Shown here one piece after another: positions 5,639 through 19,296 of a stretch of 64,000 bases of DNA (its first letter is position 1; every line of letters begins with the position of its first letter). Source of the stretch: Promethearchaeota archaeon (GTDB taxonomy: Archaea; Asgardarchaeota; Lokiarchaeia; Sigyniarchaeales; SOKP01); contig JAHLWS010000065.1 in assembly GCA_019057795.1 (NCBI GenBank), positions 64,001 to 128,000 of the forward strand, in the 5' to 3' direction. The position numbers and the translations under genes were made by a program. The notes under the pieces were generated by a model. The model ran no database searches. It was not told the origin of the DNA and saw nothing but the letters and a program-made list of their open reading frames with translations.

Positions 5639-8464
5639 ATGGTGAGAGCAAATCATATAATAATTGTTCCTGAGACCCACTGGGACCGTGAAACTTTGTA
5701 TAATTAATATACAAAGCACGATTGGTATCTCCCGTTTCAAGAGTATAGAGCAAAACTAGTTCTCATGATGGATAAGCTCTTGGATATCCTAAGAAGCGAT
5801 CCAGATTATAAAAATTTCACTCTTGATGGACAAACTATTCCGATAGAGGACTATCTTGAAGTCCGACCTGAATTTGAAGATGAGATTAAAAAGTATGTAA
5901 AAGAAAGGCGGCTTTCGATTGGGCCTATGTATATTTTACCAGATGAATTTTTGGTAAGCGGCGAATCTTTGATTAGGAACTTAATAATTGGACACCAAAT
6001 TGCTAAGAGATTTGGAAGGGTTATGAAAGCAGGTTACATCCCTGATCCTTTTGGCCACATTGCTCAATTACCTCAAATACTTCAAGGATTTGAAATCCCT
6101 TCGATTTTATTCTGGCGAGGGTTTGGTAACGAATTCGTAGAAAATAACCTAAACATTGAATTTATTTGGAATTCCCCCGGAGATTCTAATTCTATTTTGG
6201 GAATATTTTTGAAGCAGAGCTACGGTTCGGTTGCTGATCTTAATTTATCAAAAAGAAGCGGAAAATATAAACTGGCGCTTCATAAGATAAAAAGGGTTGT
6301 TTCTGAGTTCGAAAAATTCACAGCTACATCCTATGTTCTTTTGAATAGCGGTTCAGATCATCACGAAGCTCGATCGGAGATTCCTGAAATAGTTAGACAA
6401 TGGAACGAAATGTATCCCGAGAAACTTTTAGAACAAAACGATTTTGAATATTATGTCGATAAAGTATTACATAGTAATCCACAGTTAAAACAGTTTAAAG
6501 GCGAATTAAGAGGTGGAAAGTACGCACATCTACTTTCAGGGGTATTTTCAGCTCGTATGTGGATCAAGCAGAGAAACACGGCAATCGAATATCTGTACGA
6601 AAAATATACGGAACCCTTATCAACAATTATATGGTCTCTCGATAAATATAAGGAATTTAATTACCCTCAAGCTTATATGCTCACAGGTTTGAAATGGCTT
6701 ATCAAAAACCACCCTCACGATAGCATATGTGGCTGTTCTATTGATCAGGTTCACAAAGAAATGGAGACTAGGTTTGATTGGGCGGAGCAAATCGGTAATG
6801 AAGTGTTTAAAAATTCAATATTGTATCTATACAATCTGATTACAGTTGAGGAAGACGAGAAAAAAATTCCGATCGTAGTATTTAATCCTCTTCCTTGGAA
6901 ACGTAAAGATATCGCAAATTTCCACATAATATCCAACACTAAAAAAGCTGGTTTTAAAAATCCAGACGCTTTCAAAATTCTCGACTCCGAAGGAAACGAG
7001 ATCGCATACCAATACGTTCAAATCAGCGAAGAGCCAAGATATAGATTAATTGGATCGGTTAGTTATTATTGCTCGTTTTTAGCCGAGGTTCCTGCTTGTG
7101 GATATAAGTGTTATTATATCGTACCAGGAGAAAAACCCGAAGAACCTGTAGTAAAGAGTAAAAAATTGAAGTTAGGTATAAATAGCTTAGAAAATCAGTT
7201 CTACAAAATCAACATAAGTTTTAAGGGACAAATCGACGTTTTAGATAAGGAAAGTAAAGTTTTGTACGAAAATATTTGTTATTTTGAGGATATAGGAGAT
7301 TGGGGGGATGAATATGACTTTTCGGGGCCATATGAAAATCAAACTGATTTAAAATTCACCTCAGAAGATCTGAATATTCTAGAAATAGCACCGTTTTTAG
7401 ACGGGGTCACCCAAAAAACGATTAGAATAAGAGCAAATCTCAATTTACCTACTTCTTTAACCGAGGATAGATATAGTAGAGACGAATATCTGATTTCAAA
7501 CTTAATCGATATCTATATAACGGTATATAAGGACATTAAACGAGTTGATTTTAAGATTGAATTAGAAAACAATAGTAAAGACCACCGAATACGAGTACTT
7601 TTTCCTTCAAAAATTAAATCTAAAAATGTAGATTCCGATGGTCATTTTTATGTCATTTCGCGAGATGTTGAGATGCCAAAATCTGAGAAATGGGCTCAAC
7701 AACCCGTACCTACTAACCATCAGAAAGATTTTGTCTCTGTTAACGATACATCAAGAACTTTTTCGGTTATAAACAAAGGATTACCCGAATATGAGGCAGT
7801 TATAAATAAAGATGGAACGATTTCGCTAGCTATTACCTTACTGCGGTGTATTGAATGGCTTTCAAGACACGATTTTACCTCGAGAAGAAGTAACGCAGGT
7901 CCGGACCTAAATACTCCCGAAGCTCAATGTCTTGGAAAGCATACTTTCGAACTTTCTCTCGTTATCGAAGGAAACAAACCTAATTGGTTAGATTCGAACG
8001 CTCACATAAAAGGTAAAGAATTTAACAATCCTTTTGAGGTTGTGGTTCCCTCGATAGTTAGAACCTCAATAAGAGCTTCGAATAAAGTCGTTTTAGCCCC
8101 TTTTGGACTAATTTCATATTTTAAACCATCAACTCGTCAACCTTTAAAACCTTATTTACCTACCAAATTAAGCTTCCTTGAAATCGATAACACAAAAATA
8201 ATGCTTAGTGCTTTGAAAAAATCGGAAAAGGGAGAATCTTTAATCGTTAGAGTTTATAACATCTCTTCAACCACTCAAAAAGCAAGGTTAACGTTACACG
8301 AGAAAACTTCCATCAAAAGTGCGGATATTGTAAACTTTTTGGAAGAAAAGCCAGAAAACGAAATTAAGGCGAAAATTGTTTCAAGTAAAGGGAATCATCT
8401 TGATCTAACTCTGGAACCGCACATAATAGTAACGATAAAACTTGAGCTTGATAATAATTATTAA
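5639..8464 (+). CDS. GH38 alpha-mannosidase / mannosylglycerate hydrolase-like, spliced: join(5639..5692,5723..8464), 931 aa
   Basis: Spliced N-terminus PETHWDREWYLPF (Zn-binding HxD motif), FTLDGQ, GYIPDPFGH nucleophile motif, HPHDSICGCS. The ORF-track version (5765 start) lacks the essential HWD motif. Confidence 0.9.
5693..5722 (+). other. 30-nt BHB-type intron in the alpha-mannosidase gene
   Basis: CGTG-AA^A-CTTTGTATA-ATTAA-TATACAAAG-CACG-AT^T: 4-bp central helix, two 3-nt bulges, perfect 9-bp inner stem; contains in-frame TAA; removal gives CGT GAA TGG TAT (REWY). Confidence 0.85.
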
Positions 8465-14256: not shown

Positions 14257-14823
14257 TTGGTGAAAAATTTGGTTTTATTGGTTGCTATTACGGGCGCTAG
14301 TGGTGCTAACCTAGCGATTATCTTGCTACAACAACTGAAGAAAAAAGAAGTTGAAACTGAATTAATAATATCAAAAGTAGCTGAGAAAATCATTGACATT
14401 GAAACTGATTATAAACTAACTGAAATAATTGATTTATCAACAAAGTATTATGATGTTGATGATTTAACGGCAAACCCCGCCAGTGGTTCTTATAAAATTG
14501 ATGCAATGGTAATTATTCCGTGCTCGATGAAATCCTTGGCTTCTATTGCTAATGGTTATGCAGATAACTTAATAACCAGAGCCGCAGATGTAACAATTAA
14601 AGAACGAAGAAAACTCATCTTAGTAGTTCGAGAAACTCCTTTCAGTGCGATTCACCTTGAAAATATGCTTAAATTAGCAAGAATTGGAGTTATAATCGCG
14701 CCTCCAATTCCTTCTTATTATATCAAACCTGAGAGTATTAATCAACTTAACGAATATTTCGTAGGAAGAATACTTGATCATATAGGTATTGAAAGCGGGA
14801 TAAAGAGATGGGGGAGCTATTGA
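14257..14823 (+). CDS. ubiX: Flavin prenyltransferase UbiX
   Basis: AITGASG, PASGS, PCSMKSLASIANG, RAADVTIKERRKLILVVRETP. Confidence 0.93.
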   Translation: MVKNLVLLVAITGASGANLAIILLQQLKKKEVETELIISKVAEKIIDIETDYKLTEIIDLSTKYYDVDDLTANPASGSYKIDAMVIIPCSMKSLASIANGYADNLITRAADVTIKERRKLILVVRETPFSAIHLENMLKLARIGVIIAPPIPSYYIKPESINQLNEYFVGRILDHIGIESGIKRWGSY

Positions 14824-16721
14824 TTTACCCATTGATATAGTTCTCCAAGCAGAACTCGCTTGTCCTTATTGTCCTTAAGATTTTCTACGTTTGTTATATT
14901 CGTTAACCATAAGGAAGAACGCAACTCGTCTTTCAATGTTTTTATTTCTTTAATTGTGTGAATAGAAGTACTGTTGTTGTAATCTTTCCAAGCGGATAAT
15001 AGAAATTTATAAGCAAATCCTCCGATATCAGCGCCTAATGCGATGCTTTTAGCGATATCTACTCCATTCCTTAGACCACCAGTTGCTATAATCAATTTTT
15101 TAGTAACTTCTCTTACATAAATAATGGTTAGAGGTGTGGGGATACCCCATTCTCTAAAAGAATCTGCGAGTCTTCTCGTATATTTTTCAAAACTAAAATT
15201 ATCTCGGTGAGATTCAATTGCAGCAAAACTAGTACCTCCAGTGCCTCCGACATCAAATCCATCGAAACCTATTGAATCAAGACTCAAAGCTAATTCCTTA
15301 TTGAAGCCAGTTCCCACTTCTTTGGCGATTATTGGAATGTTAATTTCTTTTCGAATTTTTTGAAATTTTTCAAAGAAATTTTTATAAGATATGTTTCCGT
15401 TGCTTTGGACTAATTCGTGTAAAGCATTAAAATGAATGGCCATTACATCTGCTTTTACCATTTCAATACATTCAATAAAGTCTTCTTTTTTAAAAGTGGA
15501 AGAATTGATTTGGCCGATTCCTATATTTCCAATTATTGGAATGTTAGGCGCAACTTCACGAACAATCTCAAAAGACTCAAGGGTAGAGGGATCTTCCAAG
15601 CCTATGCGTTGACTTCCTACGCTCATTATAATGTTTTCTTCTTCTGCAGCTTTAGCTAAAATTCTGTTTATTGCTTTAGAGATTGGATGCCCACCGGTTA
15701 TAGCGGAAATACAAATTGGAGCGGAAATCTTTTTATTAAAAAACATTGTTGCGATGTCAATATCATCTAATTCGACTTCCGGAAGCGAATGATGAATTAA
15801 TTTTATGTCATCAAAATAGTTTTTTACGTGTTGGACATTAGATATGATTGGAATCTTGAGGTGTTCTAACTTTCTCATATAAATCTCTGATAACCTTTTT
15901 TCGTCATGAATTCCACTAATGTTCGTACAGATTAATTTTTGATTGCTTAAGGCCTTAAAGATGTTACCGTCAGTCAGACCGTTTATAACCTGAACTGGAA
16001 TATTTAATCTACAAATTTCTTTAATCGCATGAATTTTTCCTCTAATACTTCCAGTAACATCAATCTTATTTCCTAAATCGGCTAATTTAATTTTATCTAA
16101 CTCTTCAAGACTAATTTCTGAGGCTAATTTTATATTTTTTTTATCATTTTTAATATCTTCAACAAAAATTCCATCTTTGTCAACAGCAAAAATAACTTTA
16201 GAAATACAATATTTTTTCAAGTTTTTACACAATTCTAAAATTATGCGATCTCCAGAAATTATTGAAAAATTGCCTTCTTTATCAAGAATAATATCCCCAT
16301 ATAAAACGGGTAGAATTCCAAGATCAAGCGAAGTTTCAATTGGCTCAATAGATTCAAAAAAAATCTCGTTTAAATGTTTGATAAAAATACTTGAAGGTTG
16401 AATGGAAAGAGCGGGATACTTATTTTCTAAAAACTCTTCAATTATTTGCGAATTGAATTTAATCATCGCTTCGTGCGTTTTAGTTAGCCCAAATATCTGA
16501 TTCTTAATAGAAATATTGAGTCCTTGAGAAATGTTATATTTTTTAGCAATCGGGTGTCCAAAGGAACCTCCTCCATGGATTAAGATTAACTTTTTATTAG
16601 CATCTATTATTTGTTGAATTGCGCTTTTTACAACTTCTTTTCTGATAGAAAAAGGAATATTTTTATCAGTTAATAAACTTCCACCCAATTTTAACAGAAA
16701 TATTTCGTTACTATTTTTCAA
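14817..16721 (-). CDS. fni: Fused isopentenyl phosphate kinase / type 2 IPP isomerase
   Basis: N-term LKLGGSLLTDK, HGGGSFGH, SGD, DVTG (IPK); C-term RKLEH, AITGG, GSQR, KEVGTG, GGTSFAAIE, WGIPT, ATGGLRNG (IDI-2). Confidence 0.9.
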   Translation of the reverse strand: MKNSNEIFLLKLGGSLLTDKNIPFSIRKEVVKSAIQQIIDANKKLILIHGGGSFGHPIAKKYNISQGLNISIKNQIFGLTKTHEAMIKFNSQIIEEFLENKYPALSIQPSSIFIKHLNEIFFESIEPIETSLDLGILPVLYGDIILDKEGNFSIISGDRIILELCKNLKKYCISKVIFAVDKDGIFVEDIKNDKKNIKLASEISLEELDKIKLADLGNKIDVTGSIRGKIHAIKEICRLNIPVQVINGLTDGNIFKALSNQKLICTNISGIHDEKRLSEIYMRKLEHLKIPIISNVQHVKNYFDDIKLIHHSLPEVELDDIDIATMFFNKKISAPICISAITGGHPISKAINRILAKAAEEENIIMSVGSQRIGLEDPSTLESFEIVREVAPNIPIIGNIGIGQINSSTFKKEDFIECIEMVKADVMAIHFNALHELVQSNGNISYKNFFEKFQKIRKEINIPIIAKEVGTGFNKELALSLDSIGFDGFDVGGTGGTSFAAIESHRDNFSFEKYTRRLADSFREWGIPTPLTIIYVREVTKKLIIATGGLRNGVDIAKSIALGADIGGFAYKFLLSAWKDYNNSTSIHTIKEIKTLKDELRSSLWLTNITNVENLKDNKDKRVLLGELYQWVNQ

Positions 16722-16734
16722 TTTTAATTAACAC

Positions 16735-17701
16735 TCATCCTATCATTGTTCTCCAGGCGTCATAGCCTTCTTTTTCGATAGCCTTGGCGATAGATTCTTG
16801 TATTTCTTCATTTTCTGCTAAAGCGATTACTAAACCACCCCGACCCGTCCCCGTCATTTTAGCTCCAACCGCTCCATTTTTTAGTGCTATTTCTACCAAT
16901 TTATCGTTTATTTCTCCTGAAACTGTGATTCTTTGAAGTAATTTGTGGTTTTGATTCATTAATTTGCCTATAGTGGTAATATCACCTTCAAGCAATGCTT
17001 TTTTTGCTTTTTCTGATAAATCCTTATATTCGTTTAGTATCTTCTCAAATTCTTCTGAATTAGTTTCCTTTAAACGCCGAACATCAGCAACTACTTCCGT
17101 TGTTGAAGCTGTTATTCCTGAATTTGCGATTGTCAAGAGCATCTTTCTTGGCGATTGAAGGAAGTCCATCGTATTTTTTCCACCACTTAAATTTTTCACA
17201 AACCAAATCAAACCACCATAAGTCGAAGCCGTGTTATCAATACCAGAAGGGGTTCCGTGATAAGCCTTCTCTCCTTCGTAAGCGGCTTCGTTTATCTTTT
17301 CATCGTCTAACTTTAGATTAAAGCTATCGTTGATTGCACGAGCGAGAGAAGTACATTGAGCGGCAGAAGCACCAACTCCACTCGTAGCGATTAAATCTCC
17401 TGTGAAAGTGATTTCAAGTTTTTGACTCTCTGTATCTATTTTTAAATAATGGACTACATTGCGAATAGATTGCATTGCCTCATCGTATTTCTTTTTTTTA
17501 TAACCCGGTGTAGCGGGTCTCTGATCGTCGACAGTCCAGTTTTGTCCATTAACAACTTTAACATCTGCGGTTGTATAGGAACCTAATGCCGAAGCAATAG
17601 CGGGAAGACCATAAACTACAAAATGATTGCGTCTACTTCCGAAGTTGGAAGTAAATTTCGCCAAAAAGAATGGTCTTACCATATCCTTTTCCAGTTCCCG
17701 T
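16735..17701 (-). CDS. mvk: Mevalonate kinase, spliced: complement(join(16735..17625,17657..17701)), 311 aa, ACG at the start position
   Basis: Spliced N-terminus GTGKGYGKTILFGEHFVVYGLPAIA; GVGASAA, HGTPSGIDN, GAKMTGTGRGG GHMP motifs. Confidence 0.9.
17626..17656 (-). other. 31-nt BHB-type intron in mvk
   Basis: Minus strand GGCG-AA^A-TTTACTTCC-AACTTC-GGAAGTAGA-CGCA-AT^C: 9-bp inner stem (one G-U), central helix of 3 bp plus G.A, two 3-nt bulges; removal gives GGC GAA CAT TTT (GEHF). Confidence 0.83.
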
Positions 17702-18091
17702 TTATTTCACCTCCACAGTACCTTTTGAACCATTTACAATTATTTTTTGTCCAGTTTTAATACAATTAATATCAATTTTATCTACGCATGGAATTTCACT
17801 AATTATGCAACCCACCGCTATTATAGTATCGATCTCTTCGTTTACGATTGCTACTGGAGCCATGTTGTTTTTTTTCATCCGGTACATCGTATACGACCCT
17901 ACAGTCGAGCCTTTACCAGTAGGAAAGACTAGAACTTTTCCTGTAATGGATTGTCCCTCAAGATCGTGCCCAACCTCAACAACCATACCGGTGTCCGGAT
18001 CTATGCCACCATAAAATGAAATCCCATCTTTAGTTACTATCGCTTCTGCCTCAGCAATTCCTTTATAGATTTTTCTTCCTTTTAGCTTCAT
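17702..18091 (-). CDS. Phosphomevalonate dehydratase small subunit (AcnX swivel domain, DUF126)
   Basis: ISFYGGIDPDTG, GKVLVFPTGKGSTVGSY; operon context. Confidence 0.9.
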   Translation of the reverse strand: MKLKGRKIYKGIAEAEAIVTKDGISFYGGIDPDTGMVVEVGHDLEGQSITGKVLVFPTGKGSTVGSYTMYRMKKNNMAPVAIVNEEIDTIIAVGCIISEIPCVDKIDINCIKTGQKIIVNGSKGTVEVK

Positions 18092-19296
18092 TTAATCGCC
18101 TCCTCAACGCATTGTTCCATTGAGCCAATTTTTACTTTGAATTTATTCTTTGCGCGTCCGTAATAACACGCCTTTGCTGAATCTACCATGATTCCCTTGA
18201 AGCGCCCCTTAATTGGAGCAACAACGCAACAGGTATCTGCAGCAAATTTTGCTCCAGCATCTTCAATAATTTTAGAATAACCAGCTTCGTCTGCGATTTT
18301 CTTTGTAGGTCGAGCAGTAGTAATCCAAAATTCTTTCTTTACTTTTTTTCCTTCTAACAATTTTGCAATTTTAGCGATTTCGTGAATTGAAGCGTGAGGA
18401 CAACCTAGACTTACAAAATCTATCTCAAGATCATCGTCAATAAGCTCAGCACGAGTCTTATCTAAATCGTCCTGATTAATTTCAATAACAATTTCACTTG
18501 GTTTAGTGTATTTATTATACTCGGGAGTAATTCCTTCCATATGGAATAATGCTGTTCCACCATAGGTAGCGACGGAAGCGCAAAAAGACTTAAGCTCTTC
18601 AACGGTAGCAGAAGGGATTCCCGCAATATAAGGGACTTTTTTTCCTAGTTTTACTAGTTTATCGCCAATCAATTTTCCCAGCACGCCAAATTCGTCAGTA
18701 TTTTTAATCGAAGCGTTTATCTTAAACAAGACTTGGGCGTGACGATTTTCGTCCAAATGATAACCGTATTTAGGCGTTTTACCGGTTAAAGCCGCTGCCA
18801 ATGCGCTTGGTCCCCCCTCTCGATTCGTTCGAGCCCCAATAACGGAGTTGGAATAACAAACAGCGCTACTTTCGGCCCAAGCAATGTGTTGGCCATAATG
18901 AGGCGCGTTTCCAATTAAATAAGGTGTACAAGAACACGTCGTAATTATTCCCATTTTTGCAAAAACATCTATAGCACGATTCTGATTTTTAGCAAATTCT
19001 TCGTCAATTCCTAACGCTCTCCAATTTTCCCGATCCATTCCAGCGGGATTTAAAGTAGTTAAAACTCTGACCTTCCCATCTTCTGCCATTTCGTTTAAGA
19101 ATTCCAACCCTGCTTCGCCAAGATTAGCGTAGGAAACTCCTGCTATTTGAACTCCATGAACATCAACCATACATTCAGCACCAAATATTTCGCCTAATGT
19201 GGTTAATATTTCCATGGATTTCTGGACGGACTTTCCATGCTTTCCATCAAGCATATCTTTTTCTATTTGTTCTAATCTCATAATCCTCAATTGCAT
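18088..19296 (-). CDS. Phosphomevalonate dehydratase large subunit (aconitase X catalytic, DUF521)
   Basis: TTLNP, CSCTPY, WAESSAV, GARTNRE, GCPH, DTCCVV, DSAKA. Confidence 0.9.
   Translation of the reverse strand: MQLRIMRLEQIEKDMLDGKHGKSVQKSMEILTTLGEIFGAECMVDVHGVQIAGVSYANLGEAGLEFLNEMAEDGKVRVLTTLNPAGMDRENWRALGIDEEFAKNQNRAIDVFAKMGIITTCSCTPYLIGNAPHYGQHIAWAESSAVCYSNSVIGARTNREGGPSALAAALTGKTPKYGYHLDENRHAQVLFKINASIKNTDEFGVLGKLIGDKLVKLGKKVPYIAGIPSATVEELKSFCASVATYGGTALFHMEGITPEYNKYTKPSEIVIEINQDDLDKTRAELIDDDLEIDFVSLGCPHASIHEIAKIAKLLEGKKVKKEFWITTARPTKKIADEAGYSKIIEDAGAKFAADTCCVVAPIKGRFKGIMVDSAKACYYGRAKNKFKVKIGSMEQCVEEAIK

What the first reader, a model, noticed from the sequence alone, without database searches (positions are those of the whole stretch)
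17620..17662. Second BHB intron, in mevalonate kinase of an otherwise intact lipid operon
Seen (minus strand): ...TTT GGCG AA^A TTTACTTCC AACTTC GGAAGTAGA CGCA AT^C ATTTT... The 31 nt shift the frame and add a TAG in the exon-1 frame. Cutting by the BHB rule restores GKTILFGE|HFVVYG, the canonical MVK N-terminal motif including the conserved Lys. The central helix is 3 bp plus G.A and the outer helix is nearly absent (relaxed BHB). Inference: MVK is required for the pathway encoded around it and the rest of the gene is intact, so splicing is more plausible than pseudogenisation. The ORF-track N-terminus (MVRPFFLAK...) is an off-frame artefact.
Basis: partly seen in the sequence, partly recalled or inferred. 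Interest (0 to 1): 0.93.

Follow-up and report, generated by a model that had tools for sequence, protein, structure and literature searches.

The report
tRNA-type intron in Asgard mevalonate kinase
The only mevalonate kinase gene of this Loki-type (Promethearchaeota) Asgard archaeon is broken by a 31-base insert shaped like a tRNA intron; comparison with 75 relatives, and a metatranscriptome contig that lacks exactly these 31 bases, indicate it is cut out of the messenger RNA, which published work documents for only one archaeal coding sequence (cbf5).

Summary
Observation confirmed and interpretation supported. On the minus strand, 31 nt (window 17656..17626) separate GKTILFGE from HFVVYG, shift the frame and bring a TAG into the exon-1 frame.

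- **Structure:** the insert folds as a relaxed bulge-helix-bulge motif: a 4-position central helix, two 3-nt bulges and a 9-bp inner hairpin. The adjacent outer helix is missing.
- **Cut sites:** the BHB cleavage rule gives the same junction as intronless orthologues.
- **Relatives:** 36 distinct alleles carry the insert at this site (28, 30 or 31 nt). Each hits a stop if unspliced. 40 alleles lack it precisely.
- **Covariation:** a synonymous exon base covaries with its intron partner. An 8-bp exon1-exon2 helix is kept only in intron-bearing alleles.
- **Selection:** exon 2 has dN/dS of 0.07-0.24, and no second mvk was found in the genome.
- **Machinery:** the genome has a catalytic EndA alpha with the K-P-R loop of broad-specificity enzymes, a His-less beta paralogue, and RtcB.
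- **RNA:** one metatranscriptome contig from the intron-bearing clade joins 17657 to 17625 exactly.

This scan had already noted similar introns in other genes of this genome. I rate it a new member of a known kind (cbf5-type pre-mRNA intron) in a new lineage and gene.

The parts
17657..17701 (-). mvk exon 1 (15 codons, TGTGKGYGKTILFGE). It starts with ACG at 17701-17699, directly after the TAA stop (17704-17702) of the upstream AcnX small-subunit gene.
   Evidence: Orthologues have ATG, TTG or GTG at the same position.
17626..17656 (-). 31-nt BHB (relaxed, HBh') intron
   Evidence: It is absent precisely in 40 intronless alleles. It is skipped exactly in RNA-library contig X3.
16735..17625 (-). 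mvk exon 2 (HFVVYG... to the stop codon, 296 codons)
   Evidence: TIGR00549 scores 209-214 bits against a cut-off of 163. dN/dS is 0.07-0.24.
17659..17662 (-). Central BHB helix, 5' strand (GGCG, in exon 1; includes the third base of the Gly codon)
   Evidence: GGC is used in 34 of 36 intron-bearing alleles. One GGU allele has a compensating CACU partner.
17628..17631 (-). Central BHB helix, 3' strand (CGCA, in the intron)
   Evidence: CGCA in 17 alleles, CGCU in 15, CGUU in 2, CACU in 1, CGUC in 1.
17632..17655 (-). Inner hairpin h' (9 bp, 6-nt loop)
   Evidence: A hairpin is kept in relatives although its sequence differs.
17670..17677 (-). Distal exon-exon helix, exon-1 strand (AAGACCAU)
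17605..17612 (-). Distal exon-exon helix, exon-2 strand (AUGGUCUU)
   Evidence: In intron-bearing alleles 26 of 36 have 8/8 pairs and 9 have 7/8. In 39 of 40 intronless alleles only 4-6 of 8 pair.
17708..17714 (-). Shine-Dalgarno-like GGAGGUG, 6 nt upstream of the ACG/ATG start
   Evidence: read directly from the sequence.

Best explanation
The 31 nt at 17656..17626 are an archaeal bulge-helix-bulge intron in the mevalonate kinase pre-mRNA.

In the transcript, exon-1 GGCG pairs with intron CGCA, and two 3-nt bulges flank this helix. A 9-bp intron hairpin stacks on one side. An 8-bp helix between exon 1 (AAGACCAU) and exon 2 (AUGGUCUU) holds the exons together in place of the missing outer helix. 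The two-subunit splicing endonuclease cuts after the second base of each bulge. This enzyme consists of the catalytic alpha encoded on contig C69 and the His-less beta encoded on C74. RtcB (C70) joins the exons and releases a 31-nt intron. The spliced message reads ...GKTILFGE|HFVVYG... and gives an active MVK. Translation probably starts at the ACG that abuts the upstream stop codon.

Shown here: the anatomy, its conservation, the exact junction, the presence of the enzymes, and one RNA-library contig with the junction. Inferred: that EndA and RtcB are the enzymes that act, that the distal helix takes part, and that ACG is the start.
For: 1. Junction. Intronless orthologues read GAA|CAT with nothing between. 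No base is shared at either end, so the boundary is unique, and it equals the BHB cleavage sites (after bulge base 2).

2. Conservation. 36 distinct alleles carry an insert at this site, of 31 nt (32 alleles), 30 nt (3) or 28 nt (1). Removing it restores the frame in every one, and every unspliced reading meets a stop within 9 codons.

3. Structure.
- The central helix is kept. GGCG/CGCU occurs in 14 alleles (4 pairs including G.U), and G010 has the compensatory pair GGUG/CACU.
- Hairpin arms differ in sequence but still pair.
- With the 3' partners slid by 1-3 columns, paired cells fall from 87% to 41-46%.
- For G000 the BHB conformer lies about 0.4 kcal/mol above the minimum free energy structure.

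4. Synonymous exon sites are constrained only where the intron is present. Intron-bearing alleles use Lys AAG 17/18, Gly GGC 17/18 and Leu CUU 17/18, while intronless alleles use mixed codons. Distal-helix pairs average 7.7 of 8 against 4.5 of 8 (wider set).

5. The gene is under purifying selection (dN/dS 0.07-0.24). It is the only TIGR00549-level MVK in a genome rated 100% complete. It sits in an intact cluster of HMG-CoA reductase, UbiD-like, AcnX large and small, MVK, IPK-IDI2 and UbiX genes.

6. Machinery.
- EndA alpha has the Tyr/His/Lys triad, matches the A. pernix alpha subunit best (3p1z_B, E 4e-34), and has K-P-R aligned to K44/R46 of the specificity loop (PMC3241643).
- The second paralogue has Ser in place of the catalytic His.
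- RtcB is present.

7. RNA.
- In metatranscriptome X3 a 1592-nt contig (depth 51.5) lies on 16735-17625 and 17657-18134 and skips exactly 31 nt with no shared letters.
- At the 23 listed variant positions it matches the G000 clade (21 of 23 like G051), and all six genomes of that clade carry the intron in DNA.
- Known intronless alleles are at most about 77% identical in nucleotides to G000 among those measured, below the 90% threshold used.
- A contig from X4, of the same study and with the same variants where both are listed, keeps the intron.
Against: - The RNA evidence is a single assembled contig, from a relative about 93% identical to G000 and not from G000 itself. RNA libraries can contain DNA, so an unsampled intronless strain is not excluded.
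- Contigs in two other RNA libraries (X2, X4) carry the intron.
- In G000 the central helix has a G.A mismatch and the adjacent outer helix is absent, so cleavage depends on a broad-specificity enzyme whose range has not been measured in Asgard archaea.
- RNAalifold on the MAFFT alignment did not return the BHB. Global covariation statistics were only modest: 14 of 500 shuffles reached the observed score.
- After splicing, the reading frame has no canonical start codon in G000 and its closest relatives.
Confidence: 0.9

Rival explanations
1. The insert is a small DNA-level insertion that is present or absent between strains and is not removed from RNA. Under this reading mvk is inactive, or N-terminally altered, in carriers, and the X3 contig is DNA or RNA of an intronless strain.
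For: Presence is patchy on the gene tree, needing 3 to 13 changes. RNA-library contigs X2 and X4 keep the insert. RNA libraries may hold DNA.
Against: - Carriers keep exon 2 under purifying selection, and no second MVK was found.
- The insert has persisted across lineages with dS above 1 while keeping a BHB fold, and its length changes (28, 30, 31 nt) only make sense if it is removed.
- The ATG of the alternative product is not conserved.
- The X3 contig carries the variants of a clade in which all six genomes have the insert.
- The insert has no other copy in the genome.
Confidence: 0.04
2. The 31 nt stay in the mRNA and are skipped by the ribosome, by programmed translational bypassing or frameshifting as in phage T4 gene 60.
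For: A stable hairpin follows the last exon-1 codon, and a stop codon lies soon after it.
Against: - Bypassing needs matching take-off and landing codons. Take-off is GAA, but the three bases before CAT are AAU, AAA, AAG or AAC.
- Insert lengths of 28, 30 and 31 nt would need different shifts.
- An RNA-library contig lacks the 31 nt.
- The structure and cut sites fit the BHB rule exactly.
Confidence: 0.02
3. The insert is removed from the RNA, but not by EndA and RtcB. Another nuclease and ligase pair, or self-cleavage, would do it.
For: No enzyme assay exists for any Asgard EndA. The motif is relaxed, with a G.A pair and no adjacent outer helix.
Against: The junction coincides with the EndA cleavage rule. 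The central helix and the 3-nt bulges are what is conserved. The genome encodes the broad-specificity type of EndA and RtcB. At 31 nt the insert is too small for a group I or group II intron.
Confidence: 0.03
4. The gene is a pseudogene, or the insert is an assembly artefact.
For: The frame is broken, and the assembly is a MAG with 7.5% estimated contamination.
Against: The same insert is found in 36 distinct alleles from independent assemblies. dN/dS is well below 1. The surrounding pathway genes are intact.
Confidence: 0.01

Closest known systems
BHB intron in the cbf5 (pseudouridine synthase) pre-mRNA of Desulfurococcales and Sulfolobales (Watanabe et al. 2002; Yokobori et al. 2009, PMC2738675)
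   Same: A short BHB intron lies inside a coding sequence, in a host with a two-subunit EndA. It shows lineage-specific presence with secondary precise losses, and it causes mis-annotation of the gene.
   Different: The lineage differs (Asgard, Promethearchaeota) and so does the gene (a lipid-pathway kinase). The motif is relaxed, with no adjacent outer helix, and has a conserved distal exon-exon helix. Splicing here rests on comparative data plus one RNA-library contig, not on RT-PCR or enzyme assay.
BHB intron in the 5' UTR of HVO_1309 mRNA in Haloferax volcanii (Schwarz et al. 2020, PMC7714728)
   Same: EndA acts on an mRNA, and this was confirmed in vivo and in vitro.
   Different: That intron is in the untranslated leader and does not interrupt a reading frame. 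The Haloferax enzyme is a homodimer type (my knowledge, not tested here).
Non-canonical tRNA introns of Asgard archaea (Valentin-Alvarado et al. 2024, PMC11291895; bioRxiv 10.64898/2026.10.13.758758)
   Same: The machinery and motif are the same, and the phylum has very many introns. The preprint reports two EndA paralogues in 44 of its 60 genomes, as found here.
   Different: [quoted passage not shown]
HAC1/XBP1 unconventional mRNA splicing in eukaryotes (Ire1 plus tRNA ligase or RtcB); my knowledge
   Same: The spliceosome is not involved. A short intron is removed from a coding mRNA, the exons are joined by the tRNA ligase system, and the reading frame changes on splicing.
   Different: The endonuclease (Ire1) and the RNA motif differ, and that system is regulated by stress. 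No regulation is shown here.

Membership tests
Archaeal BHB (tRNA-type) intron | [quoted passage not shown] | tested here: met
   In G000 the helix is GGCG/CGCA (3 bp plus G.A) with bulges AAA and AUC. 19 of the 36 alleles can form 4 pairs including G.U.
Archaeal BHB (tRNA-type) intron | The exon junction lies after the second base of each bulge | tested here: met
   The junction set by intronless orthologues and by the X3 contig is 17657|17625, which equals the rule. The rule itself was checked against the canonical 37/38 tRNA geometry from my own knowledge.
Archaeal BHB (tRNA-type) intron | Both flanking helices present (strict hBHBh') | tested here: not met
   The inner helix h' has 9 bp. 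The outer helix h has only 1 possible pair next to the bulge. The motif is therefore the relaxed HBh' form. An 8-bp exon-exon helix lies 7 and 12 nt away.
Archaeal BHB (tRNA-type) intron | The host encodes an EndA able to cut relaxed motifs (alpha-beta type or epsilon type, with the specificity loop) | tested here: met
   The alpha subunit has Tyr/His/Lys and K-P-R aligned to A. pernix K44/R46. The beta-like paralogue lacks the catalytic His. Assembly of the two subunits and their activity were not tested.
Archaeal BHB (tRNA-type) intron | RtcB-type ligase present | tested here: met
   PF01139 scores 561 bits on contig C70.
Archaeal BHB (tRNA-type) intron | The intron is absent from the mature RNA | tested here: inconclusive
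   One contig in metatranscriptome X3 lacks exactly the 31 nt and belongs to the intron-bearing clade. It is a single contig, from a relative, with no matched DNA run laid.
Archaeal BHB (tRNA-type) intron | Cleavage by EndA in vitro or in vivo | not testable with these tools
   This needs recombinant enzyme or a culture.
Mevalonate kinase (TIGR00549) | Score above the curated cut-off | tested here: met
   Exon 2 alone scores 209 bits, and 213.7 bits in the genome scan, against a cut-off of 163.05.
Mevalonate kinase (TIGR00549) | Contiguous N-terminal motif GKxILFGEHxVVYG with the conserved Lys | tested here: met
   The motif exists only after removal of the 31 nt. It is then identical to that of intronless orthologues.
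Programmed translational bypass (T4 gene 60 type) | Matching take-off and landing codons flank the gap | tested here: not met
   Take-off is GAA. The triplet before the resume codon is AAU, AAA, AAG or AAC.

The most novel reading that the evidence does not exclude
Splicing of mRNAs by the tRNA endonuclease may be a regular, required layer of gene expression in this Asgard genus rather than a curiosity. The mvk intron appears to have been kept since the base of the genus, together with a co-evolved exon-exon clamp helix. It could act as a gate on isoprenoid lipid synthesis, with unspliced and spliced forms coexisting as in X4 against X3, analogous to HAC1/XBP1 in eukaryotes.
Probability: 0.15. 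Interest if true: 0.92.

Novelty: new member of a known kind. Interest (0 to 1): 0.8.

Why it matters
- **Literature.** The papers I could search document BHB introns inside archaeal coding sequences only for cbf5 of Crenarchaeota, plus one 5' UTR case in Haloferax.
- **Testability.** The case comes with 36 natural variants, a predicted clamp helix, identified enzyme genes and a candidate spliced transcript, so it can be tested directly.
- **Annotation.** Gene callers mis-annotate such genes: here they give a false N-terminus that lacks the catalytic Lys. Pathway reconstructions for Asgard MAGs can therefore wrongly call genes broken.
- **Wider pattern.** Earlier notes of this scan report similar introns in many other genes of the same genome. 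If that holds, the phenomenon is genome-wide.

Tried and rejected
- RNAalifold on the MAFFT alignment returned the distal helix and a competing GCGAA/UUUGU pairing, not the BHB. Register shifts in the AU-rich hairpin arms spoil the column alignment.
- The whole-structure shuffle statistics were only modest (45 of 500 shuffles for paired cells, 14 of 500 for covariation). I therefore relied on per-sequence folds, the slid-partner control, and the contrast between intron-bearing and intronless alleles.
- blastn-short of the intron against the genome found no second copy, so I saw no sign of a recently spreading repeat.
- The unspliced ATG-17682 product was rejected because its ATG is not conserved.
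- L002 (C49) was considered as a second mvk and rejected. It scores below the TIGR00549 cut-off and has a sugar-kinase-type N-terminus, PGRICLMGD, without the Lys.
- The first related-loci run failed and was repeated.
- X1 contigs (probably DNA) do not bridge informatively. Parts of the stretch without cover in X1 and X2 say nothing.
- The energies for alleles with a forced G.A pair are unreliable and were not used beyond G000.

Full report
**What is in the sequence.** On the minus strand the AcnX small-subunit gene ends with TAA (17704-17702). It is followed in the same frame by ACG GGA ACT GGA AAA GGA TAT GGT AAG ACC ATT CTT TTT GGC GAA, which encodes TGTGKGYGKTILFGE. Then come 31 nt (17656..17626), and then CAT TTT GTA GTT TAT GGT (HFVVYG...), which continues for 296 codons to the stop at 16737-16735. 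Read straight on, the exon-1 frame ends at a TAG inside the insert. The ORF caller's product (ATG 17682, MVRPFFLAK...) is in the exon-2 frame and lacks the GK motif.

**Fold.**
- Exon-1 GGCG (17662-17659) can pair with intron CGCA (17631-17628), giving three Watson-Crick pairs plus G.A.
- Three unpaired bases follow each strand: AA|A and AU|C.
- The intron interior forms a 9-bp hairpin with a 6-nt loop.
- The helix that should adjoin the bulges on the exon side has a single possible pair, so this is the relaxed HBh' form.
- The minimum-energy fold of 91 nt (-24.6 kcal/mol, z -3.15) contains the hairpin and also an 8-bp helix between exon 1 (AAGACCAU, 17677-17670) and exon 2 (AUGGUCUU, 17612-17605).
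- Forcing the BHB conformer costs about 0.4 kcal/mol in G000.

**Relatives.** The window lies in a 4.95-Mb, 87-contig genome. Record titles of its closest mvk relatives name Promethearchaeota or Promethearchaeia (Loki-type Asgard) MAGs. From three searches I collected 76 distinct alleles of this region.
- Forty have no insert and read GAA|CAT directly, with the N-terminus M-G-x-G-K-G-[YF]-G-K-T-I-L-F-G-E-H-F-V-V-Y-G.
- Thirty-six have an insert at exactly this place: 31 nt in 32 alleles, 30 nt in 3 and 28 nt in 1.
- In G000 no base is shared between the insert ends and the exon ends, so the boundary is unique. It lies after the second base of each bulge, which is where the splicing endonuclease cuts a BHB. 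That geometry matches a canonical 37/38 tRNA intron (my knowledge).
- Whatever the insert length, removing it restores the frame, and leaving it in gives a stop within nine codons.

**Evidence that the RNA structure is selected.**
- The central helix is GGCG/CGCU in 14 alleles (four pairs including G.U) and GGCG/CGCA in 17. One allele has GGUG/CACU, a compensatory change between a synonymous exon base and the intron. Others have CGUC or CGUU, which still pair.
- The bulge bases vary freely.
- The hairpin arms differ in sequence between clades but still pair.
- Sliding the 3' partners by one to three columns drops paired cells from 87% to 41-46%.
- Exon sites are constrained only where the intron is present. 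Intron-bearing alleles use Lys AAG, Thr ACC/ACU, Gly GGC, Gly GGU and Leu CUU almost exclusively, while intronless alleles use mixed codons.
- The distal exon-exon helix has 8 of 8 pairs in 26 intron-bearing alleles and 7 of 8 in 9 of the 36. It has 4-6 of 8 pairs in 39 of the 40 intronless alleles. Intronless alleles are scattered over the tree, so this contrast is not one inherited event.
- I infer that this helix replaces the missing outer helix and holds the exon ends together.

**History.** On a 75-row tree of exon-2 proteins, the outgroups (titles name Thor-, Hermod-, Hod- and other archaea) lack the intron. A clade of 65 rows (support 99) holds all 34 intron-bearing rows, and its earliest branches are intron-bearing. 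The state needs between 3 changes (starred branches only) and 13 changes. The simplest reading is one gain near the base of the genus and several precise losses, as described for cbf5 (PMC2738675). The tree is midpoint-rooted and many forks are weak, so the order of events is not established.

**The gene is needed and functional.**
- Exon 2 alone passes the mevalonate kinase equivalog model (209 bits, cut-off 163).
- A genome-wide scan finds no other hit over the cut-off.
- The next best hit, on C49, has a sugar-kinase N-terminus without the Lys.
- Pairwise dN/dS of exon 2 between G000 and eleven relatives is 0.07-0.24.
- The neighbours are intact: HMG-CoA reductase, a UbiD-like decarboxylase, AcnX large and small subunits, an IPK-IDI2 fusion, and UbiX. 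That is the gene set of the archaeal mevalonate pathway (my knowledge).

**Machinery.**
- The genome has two EndA paralogues of 200 and 201 residues.
- The first matches the A. pernix alpha subunit best (E 4e-34). It keeps the Tyr, His and Lys positions, and it aligns without gaps through the Crenarchaea-specific loop, with K-P-R at A. pernix K44-P45-R46. That loop and K44 confer broad substrate specificity, including on motifs lacking a helix (PMC3241643).
- The second paralogue has Ser where the catalytic His stands, as expected of a structural beta subunit.
- RtcB is present.
- A 2026 preprint reports two EndA paralogues in 44 of 60 Asgard genomes and very many tRNA introns. In the passages returned by my term search, its only use of 'protein-coding' concerns genes neighbouring tRNA loci.

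**RNA.** Ten runs hold parts of the stretch, and four were laid.
- In metatranscriptome X3 a 1592-nt contig (depth 51.5) covers 16735-17625 and 17657-18134 and skips 31 nt. No letters are shared at the joint, so this is exactly the predicted splice.
- The contig differs from G000 at about 7% of positions. At the 23 listed variant positions it matches G051 at 21 and the other clade members at 17-19.
- All six genomes of that clade carry the intron.
- The intronless alleles I measured are at most about 77% identical in nucleotides.
- A contig of X4, from the same study and with the same variants where both are listed, keeps the intron, and so does a contig of X2.
- Contigs cannot give proportions, and RNA libraries may hold DNA. 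I therefore count this as good but not final evidence.

**Start codon.** After splicing, the frame has no ATG, GTG or TTG between the upstream stop and the GK motif. The codon at the conserved start position is ACG in G000 and in nine other distinct alleles, three of them intronless. Other alleles have ATG, TTG or GTG there. It is preceded by GGAGGUG, and it abuts the upstream stop codon. I infer initiation, or coupled re-initiation, at ACG. This is untested.

**Known cases and novelty.** The papers I could search document a BHB intron inside an archaeal coding sequence only for cbf5 of Crenarchaeota, and one in a 5' UTR in Haloferax. I found no paper on such introns in Asgard protein genes. 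Earlier notes of this same scan report similar inserts in many other genes of this genome, one of them in this window at 5687-5725. I did not test those. The mechanism is the known one, so I file this as a new member of a known kind. The lineage, the gene, the clamp helix and the transcript evidence are new.

Noticed in passing
window 17699-17701 (minus strand); also L077, L079, L085 and the G000-clade loci: The conserved start position of mvk is ACG in 10 distinct alleles (7 intron-bearing, 3 intronless), where other species have ATG, TTG or GTG. It directly follows the upstream TAA/TGA stop and lies 6 nt after GGAGGUG. This is a possible non-canonical start or coupled re-initiation.
   Followed up: partly
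window 14817-16721 (minus strand): A single 634-residue ORF joins an amino-acid-kinase-fold domain (isopentenyl phosphate kinase-like) to an FMN-dependent dehydrogenase-fold domain (type 2 IDI-like). It is an apparent IPK-IDI2 fusion next to mvk.
   Followed up: no
whole genome G000: ARAGORN finds only 18 tRNA genes, 10 of them with introns, in a 4.95-Mb genome rated 100% complete. This suggests that most tRNA genes are hidden by non-canonical or multiple introns.
   Followed up: no
L028 (G013) and L029 (G023), same genus: In these two congeners the search found only a different, classical MVK type (N-terminus PGK.IL.GEHAVVYG, 34-40% identical) and not the orthologue studied here. This could be gene displacement or incomplete assembly.
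   Followed up: no
L092, L093, L100, L102, L115, L124 (record titles): Several MAGs whose mvk is 69-82% identical to this one are titled Nanopelagicaceae bacterium, Bathyarchaeota, Nitrosopumilales or Odinarchaeota. These are probably mislabelled or mixed bins.
   Followed up: no
I did not examine it.
   Followed up: no
L091, L094, L116 (about 30 nt upstream of the mvk start): These intronless alleles have extra sequence (ATGGGGTAAAACTA) between the upstream gene and the mvk ATG, so the stop-start abutment seen elsewhere is lost.
   Followed up: no
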